This document shows positions 820 to 6,094 of a DNA stretch of 6,094 nucleotides, piece after piece. Made by a program: the position numbers and the translations under genes. The stretch is from a virus (lineage: Duplodnaviria > Heunggongvirae > Uroviricota > Caudoviricetes), in IMG/VR virus record IMGVR_UViG_3300023487_000043, positions 1-6,094 of that record; one strand, given 5' to 3'. Position 1 is the first letter of the stretch. Each line of letters begins with the position of its first letter. Under the pieces are notes generated by a model. The model made no database searches. It was not told where the DNA came from and saw nothing but the letters and a program-made list of their open reading frames with translations.

Positions 820-1288
820 AGTAGAATACCCAATTTTCTGTTTCTTGGTTGTGTCCAAAGTTATATTCAATATCTGGTGTTGATGTATCAATATTCTTCA
901 TCCCATCAACAAGAGTTGATACAACAGCCAAATCTTGTTTGATTCTCATTAAATGGTACTTCTTCCGGCGCAATAAACTTTCAATGGCAAGTTTCTTCGT
1001 TGGGAATGCAAAAGATCTTTCTGCATTTTTTGCTACTTTCTTAATTGCATATCTATTTCTCCTTTGTTTCCATTCCTGTAACCACTGATTTGGTGCTGGT
1101 TTAAAATTAACAATCCAATGCGCAGGAACCAACCATGCATAATGCTCTGTCTGATGAAAAGCTATATATTGAAGTGCGAATATTTTGATTCCATCTTCTT
1201 CAACTGTCGCCTGGAATCTCCAGAAAACAGGCATTCCCTCATGTTCAGTTTCTGATTCAGGAAAAGGTACGCTCCATGATTTTGTCAT
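818..1288 (-). CDS. Hypothetical early protein (156 aa) immediately downstream of the N-like gene
   Basis: ORF track. Start ATG 1288-1286 with GAGGTGA upstream; this SD overlaps the N-like stop (1297-1299). No hydrophobic segments or known motif seen. Confidence 0.55.
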   Translation of the reverse strand: MTKSWSVPFPESETEHEGMPVFWRFQATVEEDGIKIFALQYIAFHQTEHYAWLVPAHWIVNFKPAPNQWLQEWKQRRNRYAIKKVAKNAERSFAFPTKKLAIESLLRRKKYHLMRIKQDLAVVSTLVDGMKNIDTSTPDIEYNFGHNQETENWVFY

Positions 1289-1296
1289 ATCTCACC

Positions 1297-1596
1297 TCAA
1301 ATAAGTGGTTTGCTGCCTAATTTCATTTTCTGGCGACCAACACAAGTCACACCCATTTCACTGCGTGGCTTGCTGTAGTAAATACGGTTCTGTTTACGCT
1401 CGACTTCTTCTGCCTTCTTGCAGCGAAGGCTTCCGAGTGATGCTGCTTTATCTGCTCTGACGCAACCAGAGAGCTTTAGCGCAATTTTTCGCGCCAGTCG
1501 CTGCTCTTGCATTGCCTGCTCACGTTGAGCCTGTCTGCGTGCTCTGCGGCGATTTCTGGCGTTATCGTCAGCCAGATATGTAATGACTACTGTCAT
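1297..1596 (-). CDS. N-like transcription antiterminator (P22 gene 24 / lambda N family)
   Basis: 99 aa. N-terminal MTVVITY followed by an arginine-rich motif NARNRRRARRQAQREQ typical of N-family boxB-binding peptides. First gene downstream of pL/nutL. GGAGG 5 nt upstream of the ATG. Confidence 0.7.
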   Translation of the reverse strand: MTVVITYLADDNARNRRRARRQAQREQAMQEQRLARKIALKLSGCVRADKAASLGSLRCKKAEEVERKQNRIYYSKPRSEMGVTCVGRQKMKLGSKPLI

Positions 1597-1703
1597 GTTG
1601 ACCTCCGATGATTGACTTTGGCGGTGACGCGCCGGGTGCTTATCTTCCGGTTGCCGTCGTGCAGCTGCACTTCACGTCACCCCAAAGCCAACTACTCTTT
1701 GGT

Positions 1704-1744
1704 TCCCGCATTTCGGCGGGACAATCCCATCAATGTTAAAGAGC
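1704..1744 (-). promoter_or_regulatory. nutL (boxA + boxB)
   Basis: Minus strand reads GCTCTTTAACA (boxA, plus 1734-1744), a 12-nt spacer, then hairpin UCCCGC-CGAAAU-GCGGGA (plus 1704-1721). The same boxA and an identical boxB recur at nutR. Confidence 0.6.
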
Positions 1745-1790
1745 CTGCCAATCTGTTCCGTTTGGCTTCCAGCGTCCTGCTGATGGCTTA

Positions 1791-1844
1791 AATTTAAGAT
1801 CTCTTTAATTAATGGTCAAGAGTATTTTTGAAGAAAACTTAAAT
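1791..1844 (-). promoter_or_regulatory. OL operators and putative pL
   Basis: 18-bp site ATTTAAGATCTCTTTAAT (1792-1809) fits the P22 c2 half-site pattern ATTTAAG/CTTTAAT. A second site TTTGAAGAAAACTTAAAT (1827-1844). Minus-strand -35 TTGACC (plus 1814-1819), 17-bp spacer, weak -10 TAAATT (plus 1791-1796). Confidence 0.55.
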
Positions 1845-1882
1845 TTTCTTTCGTAACTTAAGTTTGGCTTTGATTTTTAAAG

Positions 1883-1910
1883 GAAATAAAAAAAAGGGGC
1901 GAATGCCCCC
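1883..1910 (-). terminator. Intrinsic terminator immediately after the c2 stop
   Basis: Minus strand after the TAA stop: GGGGC-AUUC-GCCCC followed by 8 U (plus stem 1896-1900/1905-1909, A-run 1884-1895). Confidence 0.6.
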
Positions 1911-2561
1911 TTATGGAAGGTTTGCTAGTTTTGCATCGACAACTACGCCGATGATTTTGCAGTTTCCGTTGATCTCGATCATCGGATATTGTGGGTTAAG
2001 TGGTTTTAGAAACTTCCTGCCTGCATCAATAACTAACTTCTTGAAAGTTGCCTCGTTTTCTCCTTCGAGCTTTGCAACTACCAGTTTCCCGTTACGCGGC
2101 TCTACTTCAGGATCGACGAGTATTATCATTCCTTCAGGGATACTGAGACCGGCCGGAGCCGTCATTGAGTCTCCCTTCACATCCAACCAAAACGAATCTT
2201 CTGAACAGTCTACGGTTGTATCGTACCAGTTATCTATTGCACGCTTATGATATGGTTCTACAGCTTCCATCCAGCATCCTGCGCTCACCCAGCTAATCAG
2301 AGGGTATGACCCTCTTGGATCATGCCTACTGTGATAGGCAATGTTTGAAAGACTTTCCTCTCCTTTCATCAGATAGTCAGGGGAACACTTCAACGCATTA
2401 GCCAGGGCGAGAAGATTCTCTCCATTTGGCTCTGTCTCAGAGCGTTCCCACTGAGATATGGCAACATTAGACACGCCGACCATCTTTCCAAGTGCGGCCT
2501 GCCTGATCTTGAGTTCTTTTCTCCGAGCGCGAATGCGCTCTCCCATCAATTGAGTTTTCAT
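1911..2561 (-). CDS. c2: Prophage repressor, P22 c2-type (N-terminal HTH, C-terminal S24/LexA-like autopeptidase)
   Basis: 216 aa. Near-identical by recollection to P22 C2 (MKTQLMGERIRARRKELKIRQAALGKMVGVSNVAISQWERSE...). C-terminal GDSM serine motif. Divergent from cro across an operator region. Confidence 0.93.
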   Translation of the reverse strand: MKTQLMGERIRARRKELKIRQAALGKMVGVSNVAISQWERSETEPNGENLLALANALKCSPDYLMKGEESLSNIAYHSRHDPRGSYPLISWVSAGCWMEAVEPYHKRAIDNWYDTTVDCSEDSFWLDVKGDSMTAPAGLSIPEGMIILVDPEVEPRNGKLVVAKLEGENEATFKKLVIDAGRKFLKPLNPQYPMIEINGNCKIIGVVVDAKLANLP

Positions 2562-2562
2562 A

Positions 2563-2627
2563 GTTAAGACATCTTAAATAAACTTGACTTAAGATTCCTT
2601 TAGTGGATAATTTAAGTGTTCTTTAAT
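2563..2627. promoter_or_regulatory. OR1-OR2-OR3 with pR (rightward) and pRM (leftward)
   Basis: Three 18-bp sites at roughly 23-24 bp spacing: OR3 AGTTAAGACATCTTAAAT (2563-2580), OR2 ACTTAAGATTCCTTTAGT (2587-2604), OR1 ATTTAAGTGTTCTTTAAT (2610-2627). pR -35 TTGACT (2584-2589) and -10 GATAAT (2606-2611). pRM hexamers not confidently placed. Confidence 0.85.
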
Positions 2628-2641
2628 TTCGGAGCGAGTCT

Positions 2642-2827
2642 ATGTACAAGAAAGATGTTATCGACCACTTCGGAACCCAGCGTGCTGTAGCTAAAGCGTT
2701 AGGCATTAGCGACGCAGCAGTCTCTCAGTGGAAGGAAGTCATCCCAGAGAAAGACGCCTATCGACTGGAAGTCGTTACAGCTGGCGCCCTGAAGTATCAA
2801 GAAAGCGCTTACCGCAAAGCGGCATAA
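2642..2827 (+). CDS. cro: Cro (P22-type)
   Basis: 61 aa MYKKDVIDHFGTQRAVAKALGISDAAVSQWKEVIPEKDAYRLE..., matching P22 Cro by recollection. GGAG 7 nt upstream. First gene of the pR operon. Confidence 0.9.
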   Translation: MYKKDVIDHFGTQRAVAKALGISDAAVSQWKEVIPEKDAYRLEVVTAGALKYQESAYRKAA

Positions 2828-2834
2828 GCAAATT

Positions 2835-2877
2835 GCTCTTTAACAGTCATGGTCCTCATTCCCGCCGAAATGCGGGA
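2835..2877 (+). promoter_or_regulatory. nutR (boxA + boxB)
   Basis: GCTCTTTAACA (2835-2845), 14-nt spacer, hairpin TCCCGC-CGAAAT-GCGGGA (2860-2877), identical to the nutL boxB. Confidence 0.65.
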
Positions 2878-2884
2878 ATACAAC

Positions 2885-2902
2885 GCGCATAAGTTGATGC
2901 GC
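2885..2902 (+). other. Hairpin between nutR and cII (tR1-like position)
   Basis: GCGCAT (2885-2890) / ATGCGC (2897-2902) with 6-nt loop, followed by a T-rich stretch. Lambda tR1 is Rho-dependent, so function here is uncertain. Confidence 0.3.
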
Positions 2903-2917
2903 ATAACTTCTTATTTG

Positions 2918-2958
2918 TTAAGGAAATACTTACATATGGTTCGTGCAAACAAACGCAA
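2918..2958 (-). promoter_or_regulatory. pRE with CII-binding TTGC-N6-TTGC repeats
   Basis: Minus strand TTGCGTTTGTTTGC (plus 2945-2958) overlaps the first cII codons; -10-like AAGTAT (plus 2926-2931). Matches the lambda pRE arrangement by recollection. Points leftward through cro toward c2. Confidence 0.65.
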
Positions 2959-3229
2959 CGAGGCTCTAAGAATCGAGAGTGCGTTGCTTAACAAAATCGC
3001 AATGCTTGGAACTGAGAAGACAGCGGAAGCTGTGGGAGTTGATAAGTCGCAGATCAGCAGGTGGAAGAGGGATTGGATTCCAAAGTTCTCAATGCTGCTT
3101 GCTGTTCTTGAATGGGGCGTCGTCGACGACGACATGGCTCGATTGGCACGACAAGTTGCTTCGATTCTCACCAATAAAAAACGCCCGGCGGCAACCGAGC
3201 GTTCTGAACAAATCCAGATGGAATTCTGA
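2936..3229 (+). CDS. cII: CII transcriptional activator (lambda-type)
   Basis: 97 aa MVRANKRNEALRIESALLNKIAMLGTEKTAEAVGVDKSQISRWKRDWIPKFSMLLAVLEWGVVDDDMARLARQVASILTNKKRPAATERSEQIQMEF, essentially identical to lambda CII by recollection. The ORF-track start at 2849 is an upstream frame extension. Confidence 0.92.
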   Translation: MVRANKRNEALRIESALLNKIAMLGTEKTAEAVGVDKSQISRWKRDWIPKFSMLLAVLEWGVVDDDMARLARQVASILTNKKRPAATERSEQIQMEF

Positions 3230-3251
3230 GGTAATTACTGGATCAATCCAC
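3176..3251 (-). ncRNA. OOP-like antisense RNA (terminator present, promoter uncertain)
   Basis: Minus strand CGCUCGG-UUGCCG-CCGGGCG followed by UUUUUU (plus 3182-3201, A-run 3176-3181) inside the cII 3' end, as in lambda OOP. The 5' end is inferred by analogy at about 3251. Confidence 0.45.
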
Positions 3252-3261
3252 AGGAGTAATT

Positions 3262-3906
3262 ATGACATACGAAAATGACAAATTCCAGGTTCTGAAGAGC
3301 ATGAAGGTGCCAGATGATTTTAAATCAAATGGCTTTGTTTATGTGCTTTCGAATGAGTGCATGCCAGGAATTTATAAGATTGGGATGACTAAGCATTCAC
3401 CAGAAGTTAGGGCTAAAGAAATTTCAGCCTCTACTGGCGTTCCTAAGCCATTTAAGGTGATAGCAGCCTTTCATTCAAATAATCCAGCATCAGATGAAAA
3501 ACTCATTCATAAAGCCTTTGCAAAAGAGAGGCTTAGTGATAATCGAGAGTTTTTCAAGCTTGAAGATAATGAGCTTTCTGAATCTCTAAATGAAATAAGG
3601 GCGCTGGTTGGCCCTGAAAGAAATGGCGAGACGGCAGAATACGCAATTTACGACGCATTCATTTCTTTTCGCCATGAAAATGAGCTTGATCTTAATGAGG
3701 AGCTTATAGAGCAAGGTCTGGGTAGTGTAGTTGGTCATCTTCCTGCGGTGAAAAATTTCCTTATTCGCGCCGGAATTGATTACGCGAAGCAACTGATAAG
3801 CAAATATAACTCATCGATAGTTATTAATACAGATGGCAGTGTGGTGATGGTTAAGTCTCTTGAAGCCCAATGCTTTGATGCGGAGGTTGGAAATGAGCCT
3901 GGCTGA
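3262..3906 (+). CDS. T5orf172 / GIY-YIG-like domain protein (214 aa) with uncharacterised C-terminal half
   Basis: AGGAG (3253-3257) then ATG 3262. Motifs GFVYVLSN...PGIYKIGMT...EVRAKE...PFKV...EKLIHKAF...NREFF match the T5orf172 pattern. AT-richer than flanking genes by eye. Sits between cII and the O-like gene. Confidence 0.7.
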   Translation: MTYENDKFQVLKSMKVPDDFKSNGFVYVLSNECMPGIYKIGMTKHSPEVRAKEISASTGVPKPFKVIAAFHSNNPASDEKLIHKAFAKERLSDNREFFKLEDNELSESLNEIRALVGPERNGETAEYAIYDAFISFRHENELDLNEELIEQGLGSVVGHLPAVKNFLIRAGIDYAKQLISKYNSSIVINTDGSVVMVKSLEAQCFDAEVGNEPG

Positions 3907-4735
3907 AGTATTTTACCTGCCGAAGAGTGAACCTGTTGAACAGGAGCGAAGAGTGGCTGATATCGATGATGGTTACACCAGATTCGCTAACGAGCTGCTG
4001 GAAGCTATCGCAAGTGCCGATTTAACCGCTCGCCAGTTGAAAGTTATGCTGGCCTACGTCCGGAAAACATATGGCTTCAATAAGAAAACAGATCGAATAG
4101 CCGATGAGCAAATTGCTCAGTTAACAGGACTGTCAAGGCAGAATGTTAACAAGGCTAAAAAAGAACTGATTTCAATGAATTGCCTGTTTATGGATGGAAA
4201 TCAAATCGGTGTAAACAGGGAGGTATCTGCGTGGCAATTCAGCAAGTGTCTCCAAGTTAGCAACTTTGTCTCGAAGTTAGAGACAAAAAGTGTCTCCAAA
4301 TTAGAGACACTCAATGTCTCGAAGTTAGAGACACACAAAAGACATTCTTTAAAGACAAAAGAAAATATTAATAAACCCCCTATATCCCCCAAAAAAGTTT
4401 CTCAGAAGTTCGACCCGCTAGAAACAGAGTTGCCTGATTGGTTATCAGCAGAAACATGGTTGTCGTGGGTTACCTATCGCAAGGAGATAGGTAAGTCGAT
4501 CAAGTCTAAGCAAAGTGTCACTCAGGCTATCAACGTTCTATGCAGAAGTCTGGAGAAGGGATATACACCTGAAGAAATTATAAACCAGAGCATCGCCAGT
4601 GGTTGGCAGGGTATTTTTGAGCCCAAGACTCCAAAGGGGAAATCTCAACCGAGGCCGCAGCATCGAGCTATGCAGGAAAACTTTGCCACCAAAGATTACG
4701 GACAAACTGAAATGCCTTCATGGGCGCAGGAGTGA
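3893..4735 (+). CDS. Replication initiator, lambda O-like (280 aa from ATG 3893)
   Basis: QERRVADIDDGYTRFANELLEA...RQLKVMLAYVRKTYGFNKKTDRI aligns with the lambda O N-terminal domain (QERNVADLDDGYARLSNMLLEA...). GGAGG 6 nt before ATG 3893. Iterons lie mid-gene. The upstream TTG (3860) and ATG (3878) lack an SD. Confidence 0.85.
   Translation: MSLAEVFYLPKSEPVEQERRVADIDDGYTRFANELLEAIASADLTARQLKVMLAYVRKTYGFNKKTDRIADEQIAQLTGLSRQNVNKAKKELISMNCLFMDGNQIGVNREVSAWQFSKCLQVSNFVSKLETKSVSKLETLNVSKLETHKRHSLKTKENINKPPISPKKVSQKFDPLETELPDWLSAETWLSWVTYRKEIGKSIKSKQSVTQAINVLCRSLEKGYTPEEIINQSIASGWQGIFEPKTPKGKSQPRPQHRAMQENFATKDYGQTEMPSWAQE
4247..4400. repeat. Replication origin: four iterons plus AT-rich region inside the O-like gene
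   Basis: 17-bp iterons at 4248-4264 (GTCTCCAAGTTAGCAAC), 4268-4284 and 4316-4332 (GTCTCGAAGTTAGAGAC), 4292-4308 (GTCTCCAAATTAGAGAC), each with GTCTC/GAGAC dyad ends. Followed by an A/T-rich tract 4333-4400. Confidence 0.8.
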
Positions 4736-4737
4736 AC

Positions 4738-5583
4738 ATGACGCTGGATGAAAAGATCTCCCAACTGGAGAAAAAACTTGCAGAATTGAGTTCTCCGCCA
4801 ATTGCTATCGAGCATACAGCTGTAGAAATTGGCACTGGCATCTGTGAAAAACATGGTGAGTTTGAGCAGCGTAACCGTTACTCGACTGGGCCAATTAAGT
4901 TTGCCTCAAGACCTAGCGAATGCCCGGAATGCATGAGAGATGAGCTTATTCGGCTACAGGCAGAGAAGATTAAAATCGACGAGGAATCACGTAAGCGCAA
5001 TGTCGAGTTTCTGTTGAATAATCTTGATATTCCTGAACGATTCAAGGGTTGCACACTACAGAACTACGAGCCAGTCAACGACGATGCAAAGAGAGTGCTC
5101 AGGGTGTGTCAGGCATACGCCAGCAAATGGCCTGAGAGGTTACAGAAAGGCGGTGGGCTGGTTATGTGTGGAAAGCCTGGTACTGGAAAGAATCATCTTG
5201 CACTGGCTATCGCCCGGCACGCAATTACGGAACATCAAAGCTCAGCTATTTTCACAACGGCGCTGAAAATTGCCAGAGAATATAAATCAACATGGTCGAA
5301 AAACTCCACCCGCACAGAGGATGAAGTGATCCGACAGTTCACTAAACCTGACCTGCTAATTATCGATGAGGTTGGTGTGCAGTTCGGAAGCGAGGCGGAA
5401 AAGATGATCATGTTCGAAATCATCAACACCCGCTACGAGCGCATGAAGCCAACAATCCTGATTAGCAACCAGAGCAAAGATGAACTGTCTGCATTCATTG
5501 GTGAGCGTGTTATTGACAGGATGAATGATGGCGGCGGATGCACCCTTGCGTTTACATGGGATAGTTACAGGAGCAGAACGTGA
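4738..5583 (+). CDS. DnaC-like helicase loader (AAA+ ATPase, IstB/DnaC family)
   Basis: Walker A GKPGTGKNHLALAI and Walker B LLIIDEVG. AGGAG (4728-4732) 5 nt before ATG 4738, directly after the O-like stop (4733-4735). The ORF-track start at 4720 has no SD. N-terminal Cys/His cluster (CEKH...CPEC). Confidence 0.85.
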   Translation: MTLDEKISQLEKKLAELSSPPIAIEHTAVEIGTGICEKHGEFEQRNRYSTGPIKFASRPSECPECMRDELIRLQAEKIKIDEESRKRNVEFLLNNLDIPERFKGCTLQNYEPVNDDAKRVLRVCQAYASKWPERLQKGGGLVMCGKPGTGKNHLALAIARHAITEHQSSAIFTTALKIAREYKSTWSKNSTRTEDEVIRQFTKPDLLIIDEVGVQFGSEAEKMIMFEIINTRYERMKPTILISNQSKDELSAFIGERVIDRMNDGGGCTLAFTWDSYRSRT

Positions 5584-5870
5584 CTGGAAAAGAAATCATC
5601 CTGGAATATCTGAAAACTCATGAACAATTCTCCCCACATGAATTAGCACTGATCACCGGAATACCAAATAACAGAATCGCTCAAGCAGCAAGGCATATGG
5701 TGAAACAAGGACATTTGAGTGTTGTTGAGCGTAAGTGGAAGACGGTTATTTATGCAAAACGCAAAGTGAAGAAGGAGCCAATTAAAAGAAATCCAGATGG
5801 TACGGGGTGGGGATGTGCAAATCCAATGACGGCGTTTATTAATAGGGCGCTTATGGAGGTAAGGCAATGA
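5580..5870 (+). CDS. Ren-like small protein (96 aa), possibly winged-helix
   Basis: GTG start overlapping the loader stop (GTGA) with AGGAG 6 nt upstream. N-terminus MTGKEIILEYLKTHEQF resembles lambda Ren by recollection, and the gene follows the helicase loader as ren follows P. Confidence 0.5.
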   Translation: MTGKEIILEYLKTHEQFSPHELALITGIPNNRIAQAARHMVKQGHLSVVERKWKTVIYAKRKVKKEPIKRNPDGTGWGCANPMTAFINRALMEVRQ

Positions 5871-5896
5871 CCATCTACATCACTGAGCTAATAACA

Positions 5897-5924
5897 GGGG
5901 CTATTTACACAGTAGCCCTTTTTT
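5897..5924 (+). terminator. Intrinsic terminator (tR2-like position)
   Basis: GGGCTA (5898-5903) / TAGCCC (5913-5918) with 9-nt loop, followed by TTTTTT (5919-5924). Confidence 0.6.
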
Positions 5925-5951
5925 ATTGGATTAAGAACGAGGGGGATCCTG

Positions 5952-6094
5952 ATGGACACCGTTAACGGAATGTGTTCAGACGCACCGCGTGCCAAAAAAT
6001 GTAAATGCGGAAAATCACCGACAATATTCGACATGGAGAACGGGTGCCAAATCTACTGCGCTAACCACGCCGCTGTGGCGGCCGCGAATTATCG
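5952..6094 (+). CDS. Partial ORF (47 codons, continues past window end); Cys-rich hypothetical protein
   Basis: GAGGGGGA upstream of ATG 5952. Hand translation MDTVNGMCSDAPRAKKCKCGKSPTIFDMENGCQIYCANHAAVAAANY has no stop. Absent from the ORF track because it is incomplete. Confidence 0.4.
   Translation, partial: MDTVNGMCSDAPRAKKCKCGKSPTIFDMENGCQIYCANHAAVAAANY

What the first reader, a model, noticed from the sequence alone, without database searches (positions are those of the whole stretch)
3262..3906. T5orf172 (GIY-YIG-like) gene occupying the start of the replication gene
The sequence from the cII stop through AGGAG and ATGACA (3230-3267) matches what I recall as the lambda cII-O intergenic region and O start. 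After two codons the reading frame becomes a 214-aa protein with T5orf172 signatures (GFVYVLSN, PGIYKIGMT, EVRAKE, NREFF) instead of an O N-terminus. The O-like gene restarts at 3893 with its own SD, overlapping this ORF by 14 nt. The ORF is visibly AT-richer than cII and the O-like gene, consistent with a horizontally acquired cassette. This site is not a classic lambdoid moron location. The gene would be expressed early from pR with the replication genes. GIY-YIG-like single-gene modules are candidates for homing endonuclease or superinfection exclusion/defence roles. The C-terminal ~110 aa matches nothing I recognise.
Basis: partly seen in the sequence, partly recalled or inferred. Interest (0 to 1): 0.78.

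Follow-up and report, generated by a model that had tools for sequence, protein, structure and literature searches.

The report
Accessory nuclease gene ahead of phage replication gene
A lambda-like prophage carries an optional 214-residue GIY-YIG-type (T5orf172) nuclease gene that takes over the start signals of the replication initiator gene; it is a real, well-conserved gene of a known nuclease kind, but its target and role remain untested.

Summary
Window 3262-3906 is a separate 214-aa gene. Residues 24-112 match Pfam T5orf172 and MUG113 above threshold and model as a GIY-YIG fold. Lambda homology ends at 3267, after ATGACA. The O-like gene restarts at 3893 with its own GGAGG and a 14-nt overlap.

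An isogenic prophage (E. coli SC406) is 99.4% identical on both sides. There, 42 bp of canonical O codons 3-16 stand in place of window 3268-3937 (670 bp).

The gene is not a one-off insert. Relatives down to 35% identity lie directly upstream of the replication initiator in all 12 distinct genomic contexts examined beyond near-identical E. coli copies. Those initiators belong to at least five kinds. dN/dS is about 0.09 in both halves.

The C-terminal half has no Pfam, PDB or viral-structure relative. By profile search it occurs only in this family. It is acidic, with no recognisable DNA-binding module.

Best reading (about 0.45): a free-standing, homing-endonuclease-like nuclease cassette that moves by recombination at conserved linkers. 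A domesticated, partner-directed nuclease is nearly as likely.

The cassette also removes the -35 element of the oop promoter pO.

RefSeq already labels the protein "GIY-YIG nuclease family protein". Interest is moderate.

The parts
3237..3261 (+). Conserved cII-O intergenic linker (ACTGGATCAATCCACAGGAGTAATT), including SD AGGAG at 3252-3256. It is the left recombination boundary of the cassette.
   Evidence: Homology to Bas106-type and L016-type contexts begins at 3237. The box is conserved in Pantoea, Enterobacter and Proteus loci.
3262..3906 (+). T5orf172/GIY-YIG-type nuclease gene, 214 aa. Codons 1-2 (ATGACA) are the canonical O start.
   Evidence: RefSeq WP_047083737.1, 'GIY-YIG nuclease family protein', is 100% identical. 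dN/dS is 0.088.
3331..3597 (+). Nuclease domain, residues 24-112. Y27, Y38, R50, H83 and E96 are invariant.
3598..3903 (+). Family-specific acidic C-terminal domain, residues 113-214 (net charge -8, pI 4.6). Order of elements: beta, alpha, long alpha, beta-hairpin, alpha.
3268..3937 (+). The 670-bp segment that isogenic empty-site prophages and phages replace with 42 bp (canonical O codons 3-16).
   Evidence: SC406: window 1286-3267 and 3938-6094 match at 99.4%. N7 matches from 3938 at 99.85%.
3882..3886 (+). SD GGAGG for the O-like gene, inside the 3' end of the nuclease ORF.
   Evidence: Read from the sequence.
3893..4735 (+). O-like replication initiator. Its first 15 codons (3893-3937, MSLAEVFYLPKSEPV) belong to the cassette and replace canonical MTNTAKILNFGRGNFA.
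   Evidence: Pfam Phage_rep_O E 4e-36. N-termini compared.
3178..3267 (-). Remains of the oop/pO unit. The oop terminator (3205-3178) and the pO -10 with its TG (reverse complement of ATTATGACA, 3259-3267) are kept. The -35 element is replaced by cassette sequence.
   Evidence: Lambda pO is found as TTGAGT-17-CATAAT. No promoter is called at the equivalent place in the window. The terminator is found in both.

Best explanation
Shown: window 3262-3906 is an optional, separately translated gene for a two-domain protein. The N-terminal domain is a T5orf172-type GIY-YIG nuclease with an intact catalytic set. The C-terminal domain is acidic and specific to this family.

Shown: the gene is the core of a 670-bp cassette lying between two conserved lambdoid linkers. 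These are the cII-O ribosome-site box and the 5' end of the initiator gene. The cassette takes the initiator's SD and first two codons for itself. It gives the initiator a new SD and a new 15-codon N-terminus, with a 14-nt overlap between the two genes.

Inferred: the protein is made with the replication genes from pR during lytic growth or induction.

Inferred, and the mechanism I think most likely: it acts as a homing-endonuclease-like selfish nuclease. It would cut the unoccupied junction of co-resident or co-infecting lambdoid genomes, that is, the canonical 42-bp O 5' sequence that its own allele lacks. Recombinational repair from the occupied allele would then copy the cassette and adjacent markers into the cut genome. 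This would fit its position exactly at a mosaic boundary next to an essential gene.
For: - Nuclease identity: Pfam hits above cut-off, GIY-YIG fold, invariant Y27, Y38, R50, H83 and E96.
- The only experimental support comes from other T5orf172-type GIY-YIG domains. Mutating the conserved Glu abolishes the anti-PLE function of ICP1 Odn (E180A; double-strand cleavage of the PLE origin was shown) and abolishes SNIPE defence (E414A) (PMC8263062; bioRxiv 10.1101/2025.11.03.685801).
- Presence/absence in near-identical backbones with sharp ends: SC406 at 99.4% on both flanks, 670 bp against 42 bp. N7 against Bas106 shows the same ends.
- The occupied allele lacks the canonical 42 bp. Its replacement is not significantly similar (27 of 48 matches, z 2.6).
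- SNPs lie close to both junctions (3233, 3258; 3948 or 3969). This suggests import by homologous exchange.
- All four combinations of cII type and occupancy exist.
- The nuclease is better conserved than its neighbours and is paired with unrelated initiators: 69% against 39%, 61% against 25%, 56% against 26%.
- T5orf172 genes are already regarded as putative HEGs that sit next to essential genes and at boundaries of genetic exchange (PMC10448857).
- The ORF is AT-richer than its flanks.
- Possible degenerate copies exist: P0027, P0032, P0055, P0056.
Against: - No DNA-binding module was found. The C-domain and the whole family are acidic (pI 4.5-5.1) and have no fold relative. The source of site specificity is therefore unexplained.
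- The cassette occupies about 1% of canonical junctions in E. coli: 19 genomes against about 1,344. Near-identical copies are always linked to one O type. That is poor spread for an active homing element.
- dN/dS of about 0.09 in both domains matches or beats the essential O gene at 0.126. The position is also fixed upstream of five kinds of initiator across distant hosts. Both points fit a gene that benefits the phage at least as well.
- Ordinary lambdoid linker recombination could produce the same junctions without any cleavage.
- Homing by T5orf172 genes has not been verified experimentally, even in ICP1.
Confidence: 0.45

Rival explanations
1. Domesticated accessory nuclease that benefits the phage in conflicts during lytic growth. 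It would act against competing phages, satellites or a host defence. Targeting would come from a partner protein bound by the acidic C-domain, not from its own DNA-binding module.
For: - Strong purifying selection on both domains.
- Always placed at the head of the replication module, whatever the initiator or loader type.
- Acidic C-domain with no DNA-binding features.
- Precedent for T5orf172 nucleases turned to conflict roles: Odn, coliphage Odn-like genes, SNIPE/PD-lambda-1.
- The N-domain matches PADLOC candidate PDC-S57 at E 4.5e-29.
Against: - The gene is dispensable. N7 is a viable phage, and many prophages with the same O lack it.
- No partner or target has been identified.
- The C-domain is not shared with initiators or satellite proteins, so there is no Odn-type chimera.
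- PDC-S57 matches only the nuclease domain, and I found no publication on it.
Confidence: 0.3
2. Replication-linked, structure-specific nuclease. It would be Slx1-like and made with O and the helicase loader. It would process replication or recombination intermediates, possibly recruited through host replisome or SSB-partner proteins.
For: - It lies directly upstream of the initiator gene in every context, overlapping it or within about 10 nt.
- The best structural matches are Slx1 and HIGLE, which are structure-specific GIY-YIG enzymes.
- The sister subfamily ends in acidic tails with a terminal Phe, such as DFDDAPF and SDDSDIPF. From memory these resemble the E. coli SSB C-terminal tip.
Against: - Isogenic phages do without it.
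- The window protein itself lacks the SSB-like tail.
- I know of no lambdoid replication step that needs such a nuclease.
Confidence: 0.12
3. Prophage-encoded defence or superinfection-exclusion gene that acts in the lysogen, as a single-gene PDC-S57-like or PD-lambda-1-like system.
For: PADLOC hits to PDC-S57 and PD-Lambda-1. Prophages commonly carry defence genes.
Against: - The gene sits inside the pR operon downstream of cro and cII, which the repressor silences in lysogens.
- No convincing own promoter: the one + strand match in the 3050-4100 scan lies inside the ORF, and the scan's hit count (2) equals that of shuffled sequence.
- Only the nuclease domain matches. The TM and DUF4041 parts of SNIPE are absent.
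Confidence: 0.05
4. Catalytically inactive T5orf172 protein that acts as a regulator, for example of the lysis-lysogeny decision. The cassette's main effect would then be loss of the oop promoter.
For: InterPro/UniProt names the domain 'Bacteriophage T5 Orf172 DNA-binding', as seen in the BFVD hit descriptions. CapR is a regulator derived from a HEG. The cassette removes the pO -35 element.
Against: All GIY-YIG catalytic positions are invariant over the family. The protein is acidic. CapR keeps the DNA-binding domain, not the nuclease domain.
Confidence: 0.05

Closest known systems
Free-standing T5orf172 putative homing endonuclease genes of ICP1, T5-like and other phages (Barth, Dunham & Seed 2023, PMC10448857)
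   Same: Same Pfam nuclease domain. Free-standing gene next to an essential gene. Variable presence between closely related genomes. Located at a boundary of genetic exchange.
   Different: The domain order is reversed, with the nuclease at the N-terminus. There is no CapR, DUF723 or DUF4397 zinc finger and no RepA_N domain. An acidic domain specific to this family takes their place. The host phages are temperate lambdoids, and the slot is fixed upstream of the initiator. Most copies are intact and under strong purifying selection.
I-TevI and T4 Seg-type GIY-YIG homing endonucleases
   Same: N-terminal GIY-YIG catalytic domain followed by a C-terminal second domain. An intronless, free-standing arrangement beside the presumed target gene, as for the Seg genes. 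The occupied allele differs in sequence at the presumed target.
   Different: I-TevI has a defined DNA-binding C-terminus (zinc finger plus helix-turn-helix; from established knowledge). No such module is detectable here, and the protein is acidic. Cleavage and homing are untested.
Odn (ICP1 Gp88), origin-directed T5orf172 nuclease (PMC8263062)
   Same: T5orf172 nuclease encoded by a phage. It has a functional link to replication modules.
   Different: Odn takes its specificity from a RepA_N domain copied from its target's initiator. Here the C-domain has no relative outside the family.
SNIPE / PD-lambda-1 (bioRxiv 10.1101/2025.11.03.685801) and PADLOC candidate PDC-S57
   Same: The nuclease domain is homologous: E 4e-12 to PD-Lambda-1 and 4.5e-29 to PDC-S57.
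   Different: SNIPE is a roughly 490-aa bacterial membrane protein with TM and DUF4041 regions, which are absent here. PDC-S57 matches only profile positions 3-94 of 212 and is an unvalidated candidate.
HK97 gp53-like small ORF at the cII-O junction (HK633_051)
   Same: It occupies the same slot. It starts at the same ATGACA behind the same ribosome-site box and overlaps the initiator start by 14 nt.
   Different: It is an unrelated 53-aa basic protein with no nuclease domain.

Membership tests
T5orf172 (PF10544) / GIY-YIG superfamily | Profile HMM match above the curated threshold | tested here: met
   PF10544 scores 58.1 bits against a cut-off of 20. PF13455 scores 59.3 against 22.3. All 30 aligned homologues carry both families.
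T5orf172 (PF10544) / GIY-YIG superfamily | GIY-YIG alpha/beta fold | tested here: met
T5orf172 (PF10544) / GIY-YIG superfamily | Catalytic residues conserved (two Tyr, Arg, His/Tyr, Glu) | tested here: met
   Y27, Y38, R50, H83 and E96 are invariant in 30 sequences down to 33% identity. A pairwise alignment maps Y27, Y38, R50 and E96 onto I-TevI Y6, Y17, R27 and E75.
T5orf172 (PF10544) / GIY-YIG superfamily | Metal-dependent nuclease activity | not testable with these tools
   This needs purified protein and E96A or R50A controls.
Free-standing homing endonuclease gene | Sporadic presence between otherwise near-identical genomes, with sharp insertion boundaries | tested here: met
   SC406 is 99.4% identical on both flanks, with 670 bp against 42 bp. 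N7 and Bas106 show the same. 19 E. coli genomes are occupied, and roughly 26-45 are empty with the same O.
Free-standing homing endonuclease gene | A DNA-binding module that confers recognition of a long target | tested here: not met
Free-standing homing endonuclease gene | Target present in the empty allele and absent or altered in the occupied allele | tested here: inconclusive
   The canonical 42 bp is absent from the occupied allele, and its replacement is not significantly similar. Whether that sequence is the cleavage site is unknown.
Free-standing homing endonuclease gene | Horizontal spread decoupled from the flanking genes | tested here: inconclusive
   The nuclease is better conserved than its neighbours and is paired with at least five kinds of initiator. 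Copies at >=94% identity, however, always accompany one O type. Occupancy is about 1% of canonical junctions.
Free-standing homing endonuclease gene | Super-Mendelian inheritance in mixed infection, dependent on the nuclease | not testable with these tools
   This needs crosses of Bas106 with N7 or lambda.
ICP1-type T5orf172 HEG architecture (Barth et al. 2023) | N-terminal CapR, DUF723 or DUF4397 zinc-finger domain(s) followed by a C-terminal T5orf172 domain | tested here: not met
   T5orf172 is N-terminal here. Pfam finds no other domain. There is no CxxC motif. The architecture is described.
Odn-like origin-directed nuclease | DNA-binding domain homologous to that of a replication initiator (RepA_N) | tested here: not met
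   A profile of the C-domain finds only 13 clusters among 1.84 billion representatives. All belong to this family, and none is an initiator.
SNIPE / PD-lambda-1 | N-terminal transmembrane segment plus DUF4041 plus C-terminal GIY-YIG domain | tested here: not met
   The PADLOC match covers only profile positions 354-450 of 491-496. Pfam finds no DUF4041.
PADLOC PDC-S57 candidate | Full-length match to the PDC-S57 profile | tested here: not met
   The best model, PDLC05041, matches only positions 3-94 of 212, which is the nuclease domain.

The most novel reading that the evidence does not exclude
The family is not a sequence-specific homing enzyme. It is a nuclease directed by a partner protein and co-expressed with the replication genes. 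Its acidic C-domain would dock on a replisome or recombination protein. In the sister subfamily an SSB-tip-like acidic tail ending in Phe would do the same. The enzyme would then cut replication intermediates of rival replicons, or the phage's own, which would explain why it always heads the replication module whatever the initiator family. Loss of the pO -35 element would in addition rewire oop/cII control in carrier phages.
Probability: 0.15. Interest if true: 0.7.

Novelty: new variant of a known kind. Interest (0 to 1): 0.42.

Why it matters
The cII-O junction is conserved at 95% identity or more in about a quarter of complete E. coli genomes. It contains the oop promoter and the initiator start.

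A nuclease cassette that occupies exactly this joint gives a concrete and testable case for a broader question: do nucleases drive the mosaic exchange of lambdoid phage modules, or do phages keep them as weapons?

The material is available. Bas106 is an isolated phage in the BASEL collection that carries the cassette, and N7 and lambda lack it. A defined family of about 214-245 residues with an uncharacterised acidic partner domain is also a small, tractable target for biochemistry.

If the gene turns out to be only a selfish passenger, the result is ordinary.

Tried and rejected

2. Odn-type chimera with an initiator domain. Rejected: the C-domain profile hits only its own family.

3. Specificity of the C-domain for the phage initiator or loader. 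Rejected: the 214-aa subfamily is paired with three initiator kinds and with both DnaC-type and P-type loaders.

4. ORF as the N-terminal domain of the initiator. Rejected: it has its own stop codon, O has its own SD, and the same O works without it in N7.

5. Sequence search of solved structures with the family profile. Nothing relevant was found.

6. The AFDB50 fold library was unavailable.

7. Clustering of flank SNPs as a co-conversion signal. The counts are too few to be more than suggestive.

8. The new O N-terminus as a diverged copy of the canonical linker. Not significant: z 2.6 for the window and -0.1 for L016.

9. Literature. No paper holds GIY-YIG, lambdoid and cII together, and none holds PDC-S57.

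10. The promoter and terminator hits inside the cassette are at chance level.

Full report
**Setting.** The window is the immunity and replication region of a lambdoid prophage. In order it contains:
- an N-like gene (1297-1596, minus strand);
- an S24/HTH repressor (1911-2561, minus strand);
- a P22-type cro (2642-2827);
- a lambda-type cII (2936-3229);
- the ORF in question (3262-3906);
- an O-like initiator (3893-4735);
- a DnaC-like loader (4738-5583);
- a small MarR-like gene (5580-5870).

These assignments rest.

**Observation.**
- The 214-aa ORF matches Pfam T5orf172 (58.1 bits, cut-off 20) and MUG113 over residues 24-112.
- Homology to lambda (96.6%) runs from 2919 to 3267. It stops exactly after ATGACA, the first two codons of O.
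- AGGAG lies at 3252-3256.
- The O-like gene restarts at 3893 behind GGAGG (3882-3886) and overlaps the stop codon of the ORF by 14 nt.
- The ORF is 40.6% GC, against 49.3% for cII and 43.9% for O. That is a real but modest difference, within the range of other genes in the window.
- The C-terminal 102 residues match no Pfam family, even at E<=10.

**Anatomy of the insertion.** The prophage of E. coli SC406 (NZ_LR778140) is an isogenic empty site.
- Window 1286-3267 and 3938-6094 align with it at 99.45% and 99.40% without gaps.
- Window 3268-3937 (670 bp) corresponds to just 42 bp there: AATACAGCAAAAATACTCAACTTCGGCAGAGGTAACTTTGCC. These are canonical O codons 3-16, identical to lambda.
- Phage N7 shows the same empty state with a P22-type c1 gene. 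Phage Bas106 shows the occupied state with that same c1 type. Occupancy therefore assorts independently of the cII type.

The cassette has four parts:
- codons 3-214 of the nuclease gene;
- a new SD;
- a new 15-codon initiator N-terminus, MSLAEVFYLPKSEPV in place of MTNTAKILNFGRGNFA;
- the canonical ribosome site and ATGACA, which it keeps for its own gene.

The new initiator 5' end is not significantly similar to the canonical 48 nt (27 matches, z 2.6). A few SNPs lie close to both joints: 3233 and 3258 on the left, and 3948 (N7) or 3969 (SC406) on the right. This fits exchange by homologous recombination in the conserved flanks better than a precise insertion, but the numbers are small.

**Distribution.**
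- Nineteen of 5,426 complete E. coli genomes carry the gene at 98.6-100% identity, all in chromosomes. RefSeq annotates it there as 'GIY-YIG nuclease family protein'.
- To the right, every copy is joined to the same O and DnaC-type module. To the left, homology breaks at 3237 into several cII and immunity types.
- The canonical 75-bp junction occurs at 95% identity or more in about 1,344 genomes, roughly 1,900 places. The cassette therefore holds about 1% of such sites.
- Among prophages with this particular O type, occupied and empty states are of the same order: 19 against roughly 26-45. The upper figure may include occupied alleles that just reach the coverage limit.

**The family.** Full-length homologues of 211-245 aa, down to about 35% identity, occur in Klebsiella, Pectobacterium, Cronobacter, Pantoea, Enterobacter and metagenomes.

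In every context I fetched, the gene lies directly upstream of the replication initiator. In all but one it lies downstream of a cII-like gene; in L019 a YdaT-like gene takes that place. That is 12 distinct contexts:
- Bas106;
- Pantoea, Pectobacterium and Enterobacter;
- four metagenomic contigs;
- the E. coli copies L021 and L022, which share one context with a different immunity region;
- three more distant phages that share only the N-domain: Salmonella S107, Proteus Brookers and Burkholderia KL4.

The initiators are of at least five kinds:
- N7-type O;
- a Pantoea-type O;
- an HK633-type protein;
- a 'MARSRNIKPGFF' protein;
- a DnaD-like protein.

The loaders are of both DnaC and lambda-P type. 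The nuclease is better conserved than its neighbours: 69% against 39%, 61% against 25%, and 56% against 26%. For the pair where synonymous sites are not saturated, dN/dS is 0.088 (N-domain 0.094, C-domain 0.070), against 0.126 for O. The gene is therefore a functional, constrained, long-resident occupant of this slot and not a recent accident.

The slot is also used by other genes. HK633 and HK97 carry a gp53-like 53-aa ORF that starts at the same ATGACA and overlaps O by the same 14 nt.

**The protein.**
- The family alignment gave an AlphaFold model with pLDDT 87 and pTM 0.71.
- Foldseek against viral models returns T5orf172, BRO and GIY-YIG proteins, but only over about 95 columns.
- Y27, Y38, R50, H83 and E96 are invariant. 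A pairwise alignment maps Y27, Y38, R50 and E96 onto I-TevI Y6, Y17, R27 and E75.
- A profile of the C-domain finds only 13 clusters among 1.84 billion representatives. Nearly all have the same architecture.
- The whole family is acidic (pI 4.5-5.1), and the C-domain carries a net charge of -2 to -11.
- There is no zinc finger, helix-turn-helix or other recognisable DNA-binding module.

**What is known.**
- Barth, Dunham and Seed (PMC10448857) describe T5orf172 genes as a GIY-YIG subfamily of putative homing endonuclease genes. These genes lie beside essential genes and at boundaries of genetic exchange. Their architecture is N-terminal zinc fingers followed by a C-terminal nuclease, and homing itself has not been verified.
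- Odn of ICP1 is a T5orf172 nuclease directed at a satellite origin by a RepA_N domain copied from its target. Its function depends on the conserved Glu.
- SNIPE (PD-lambda-1) is a membrane-bound bacterial defence nuclease with a homologous domain. Its defence is abolished by E414A.
- I found no paper on a GIY-YIG gene at the lambdoid cII-O junction and none on PDC-S57.

**Interpretation.** I am confident (above 0.9) that this is a separate, functional, optional gene for a T5orf172/GIY-YIG-type nuclease carried on a discrete cassette. How it works is less certain.

The homing-like reading fits these points:
- the isogenic presence/absence;
- the loss of the canonical 42 bp in the occupied allele;
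- the position at a mosaic joint beside an essential gene;
- the family precedent.

Four points count against it:
- the missing DNA-binding module and the acidic charge;
- the low occupancy;
- the tight linkage to one O type among recent copies;
- selection as strong as on the essential neighbour.

I put homing-like behaviour at about 0.45. A domesticated, partner-directed conflict nuclease gets about 0.30, and a replication-linked structure-specific nuclease about 0.12. Defence expressed in the lysogen and a non-catalytic regulator get about 0.05 each. Expression from pR together with O is inferred from the operon layout. No + strand terminator was detected between cII and the ORF, and the scan found no convincing promoter of its own.

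**Side effect.** The scan finds lambda's pO (TTGAGT-17-CATAAT, with an upstream TG). Its -10 element lies over the O start codon and its -35 element in O codons 7-9. In the window the oop terminator and the -10/TG are intact. The -35 element is replaced by cassette sequence, and no promoter is called. Phages carrying the cassette probably make less oop antisense RNA, which could alter cII control. The same applies to the gp53-like occupant.

**Verdict.** The gene belongs to a known kind, but it has an undescribed architecture and a conserved position. Its role is open and can be tested with existing phages. Interest is moderate.

Noticed in passing
window 3178-3290, minus strand: The cassette replaces the -35 element of the oop promoter pO. 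In lambda pO reads TTGAGT-17-CATAAT, with the -10 over the O start. The oop terminator (3205-3178) and the -10 with its TG (3259-3267) are kept. Oop antisense control of cII is probably weakened in carrier phages.
   Followed up: partly
L015 (phage HK633) 1844-2005: A different, unrelated 53-aa ORF (HK97 gp53-like) occupies the same cII-O slot. It starts at the same ATGACA behind the same ribosome-site box and overlaps the initiator start by 14 nt. The junction is therefore a general variable slot.
   Followed up: partly
P0031, P0035, P0040, P0054, P0030, P0037, P0057 (sister subfamily, about 232 aa): These relatives end in a conserved 'GIYGP...' segment followed by an acidic tail with a terminal Phe, such as IPDFDDAPF, SDDSDIPF and VEESIPF. 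From memory this resembles the E. coli SSB C-terminal tip (DFDDDIPF). The window protein lacks it.
   Followed up: no
window 4247-4333: Four direct 19-nt repeats (TGTCTCGAAGTTAGAGACA, spaced 20-24 nt) lie inside the O-like gene. They are the presumed origin iterons.
   Followed up: partly
L017 4133, L018 4132, window 3893: Initiators of unrelated families downstream of the nuclease gene share a short N-terminal motif (MSLAEVFYLP, MNTAEVIKFP, MDTAEILEFP; compare lambda MTNTAKILNF). The first roughly 10 initiator codons may therefore act as a shared linker that travels with the upstream module.
   Followed up: partly
P0032, P0055, P0056, P0027, P0059: Some database relatives are fragments. One is a fusion of the nuclease C-terminus with O (P0032). 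Others are truncated or frameshifted copies. P0059 is a possible stand-alone 95-aa C-domain. These may be decaying copies or assembly errors.
   Followed up: no
phrog_8430: The best PHROG profile has 439 positions, but the window protein matches only positions 275-439. What fills positions 1-274 could not be determined here.
   Followed up: no
H114, H115 (E. coli TST3 and TBE6): In two cassette-bearing prophages an IS5-like ISKpn26 element is annotated within the O/loader region next to the nuclease gene.
   Followed up: no
L020 4827-5373 and L018 1278-1772: Other nuclease-type accessory genes lie in related prophages: a NUMOD4 domain protein after ninB in SC406, and an HNH_3 protein left of the repressor in L018.
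   Followed up: no
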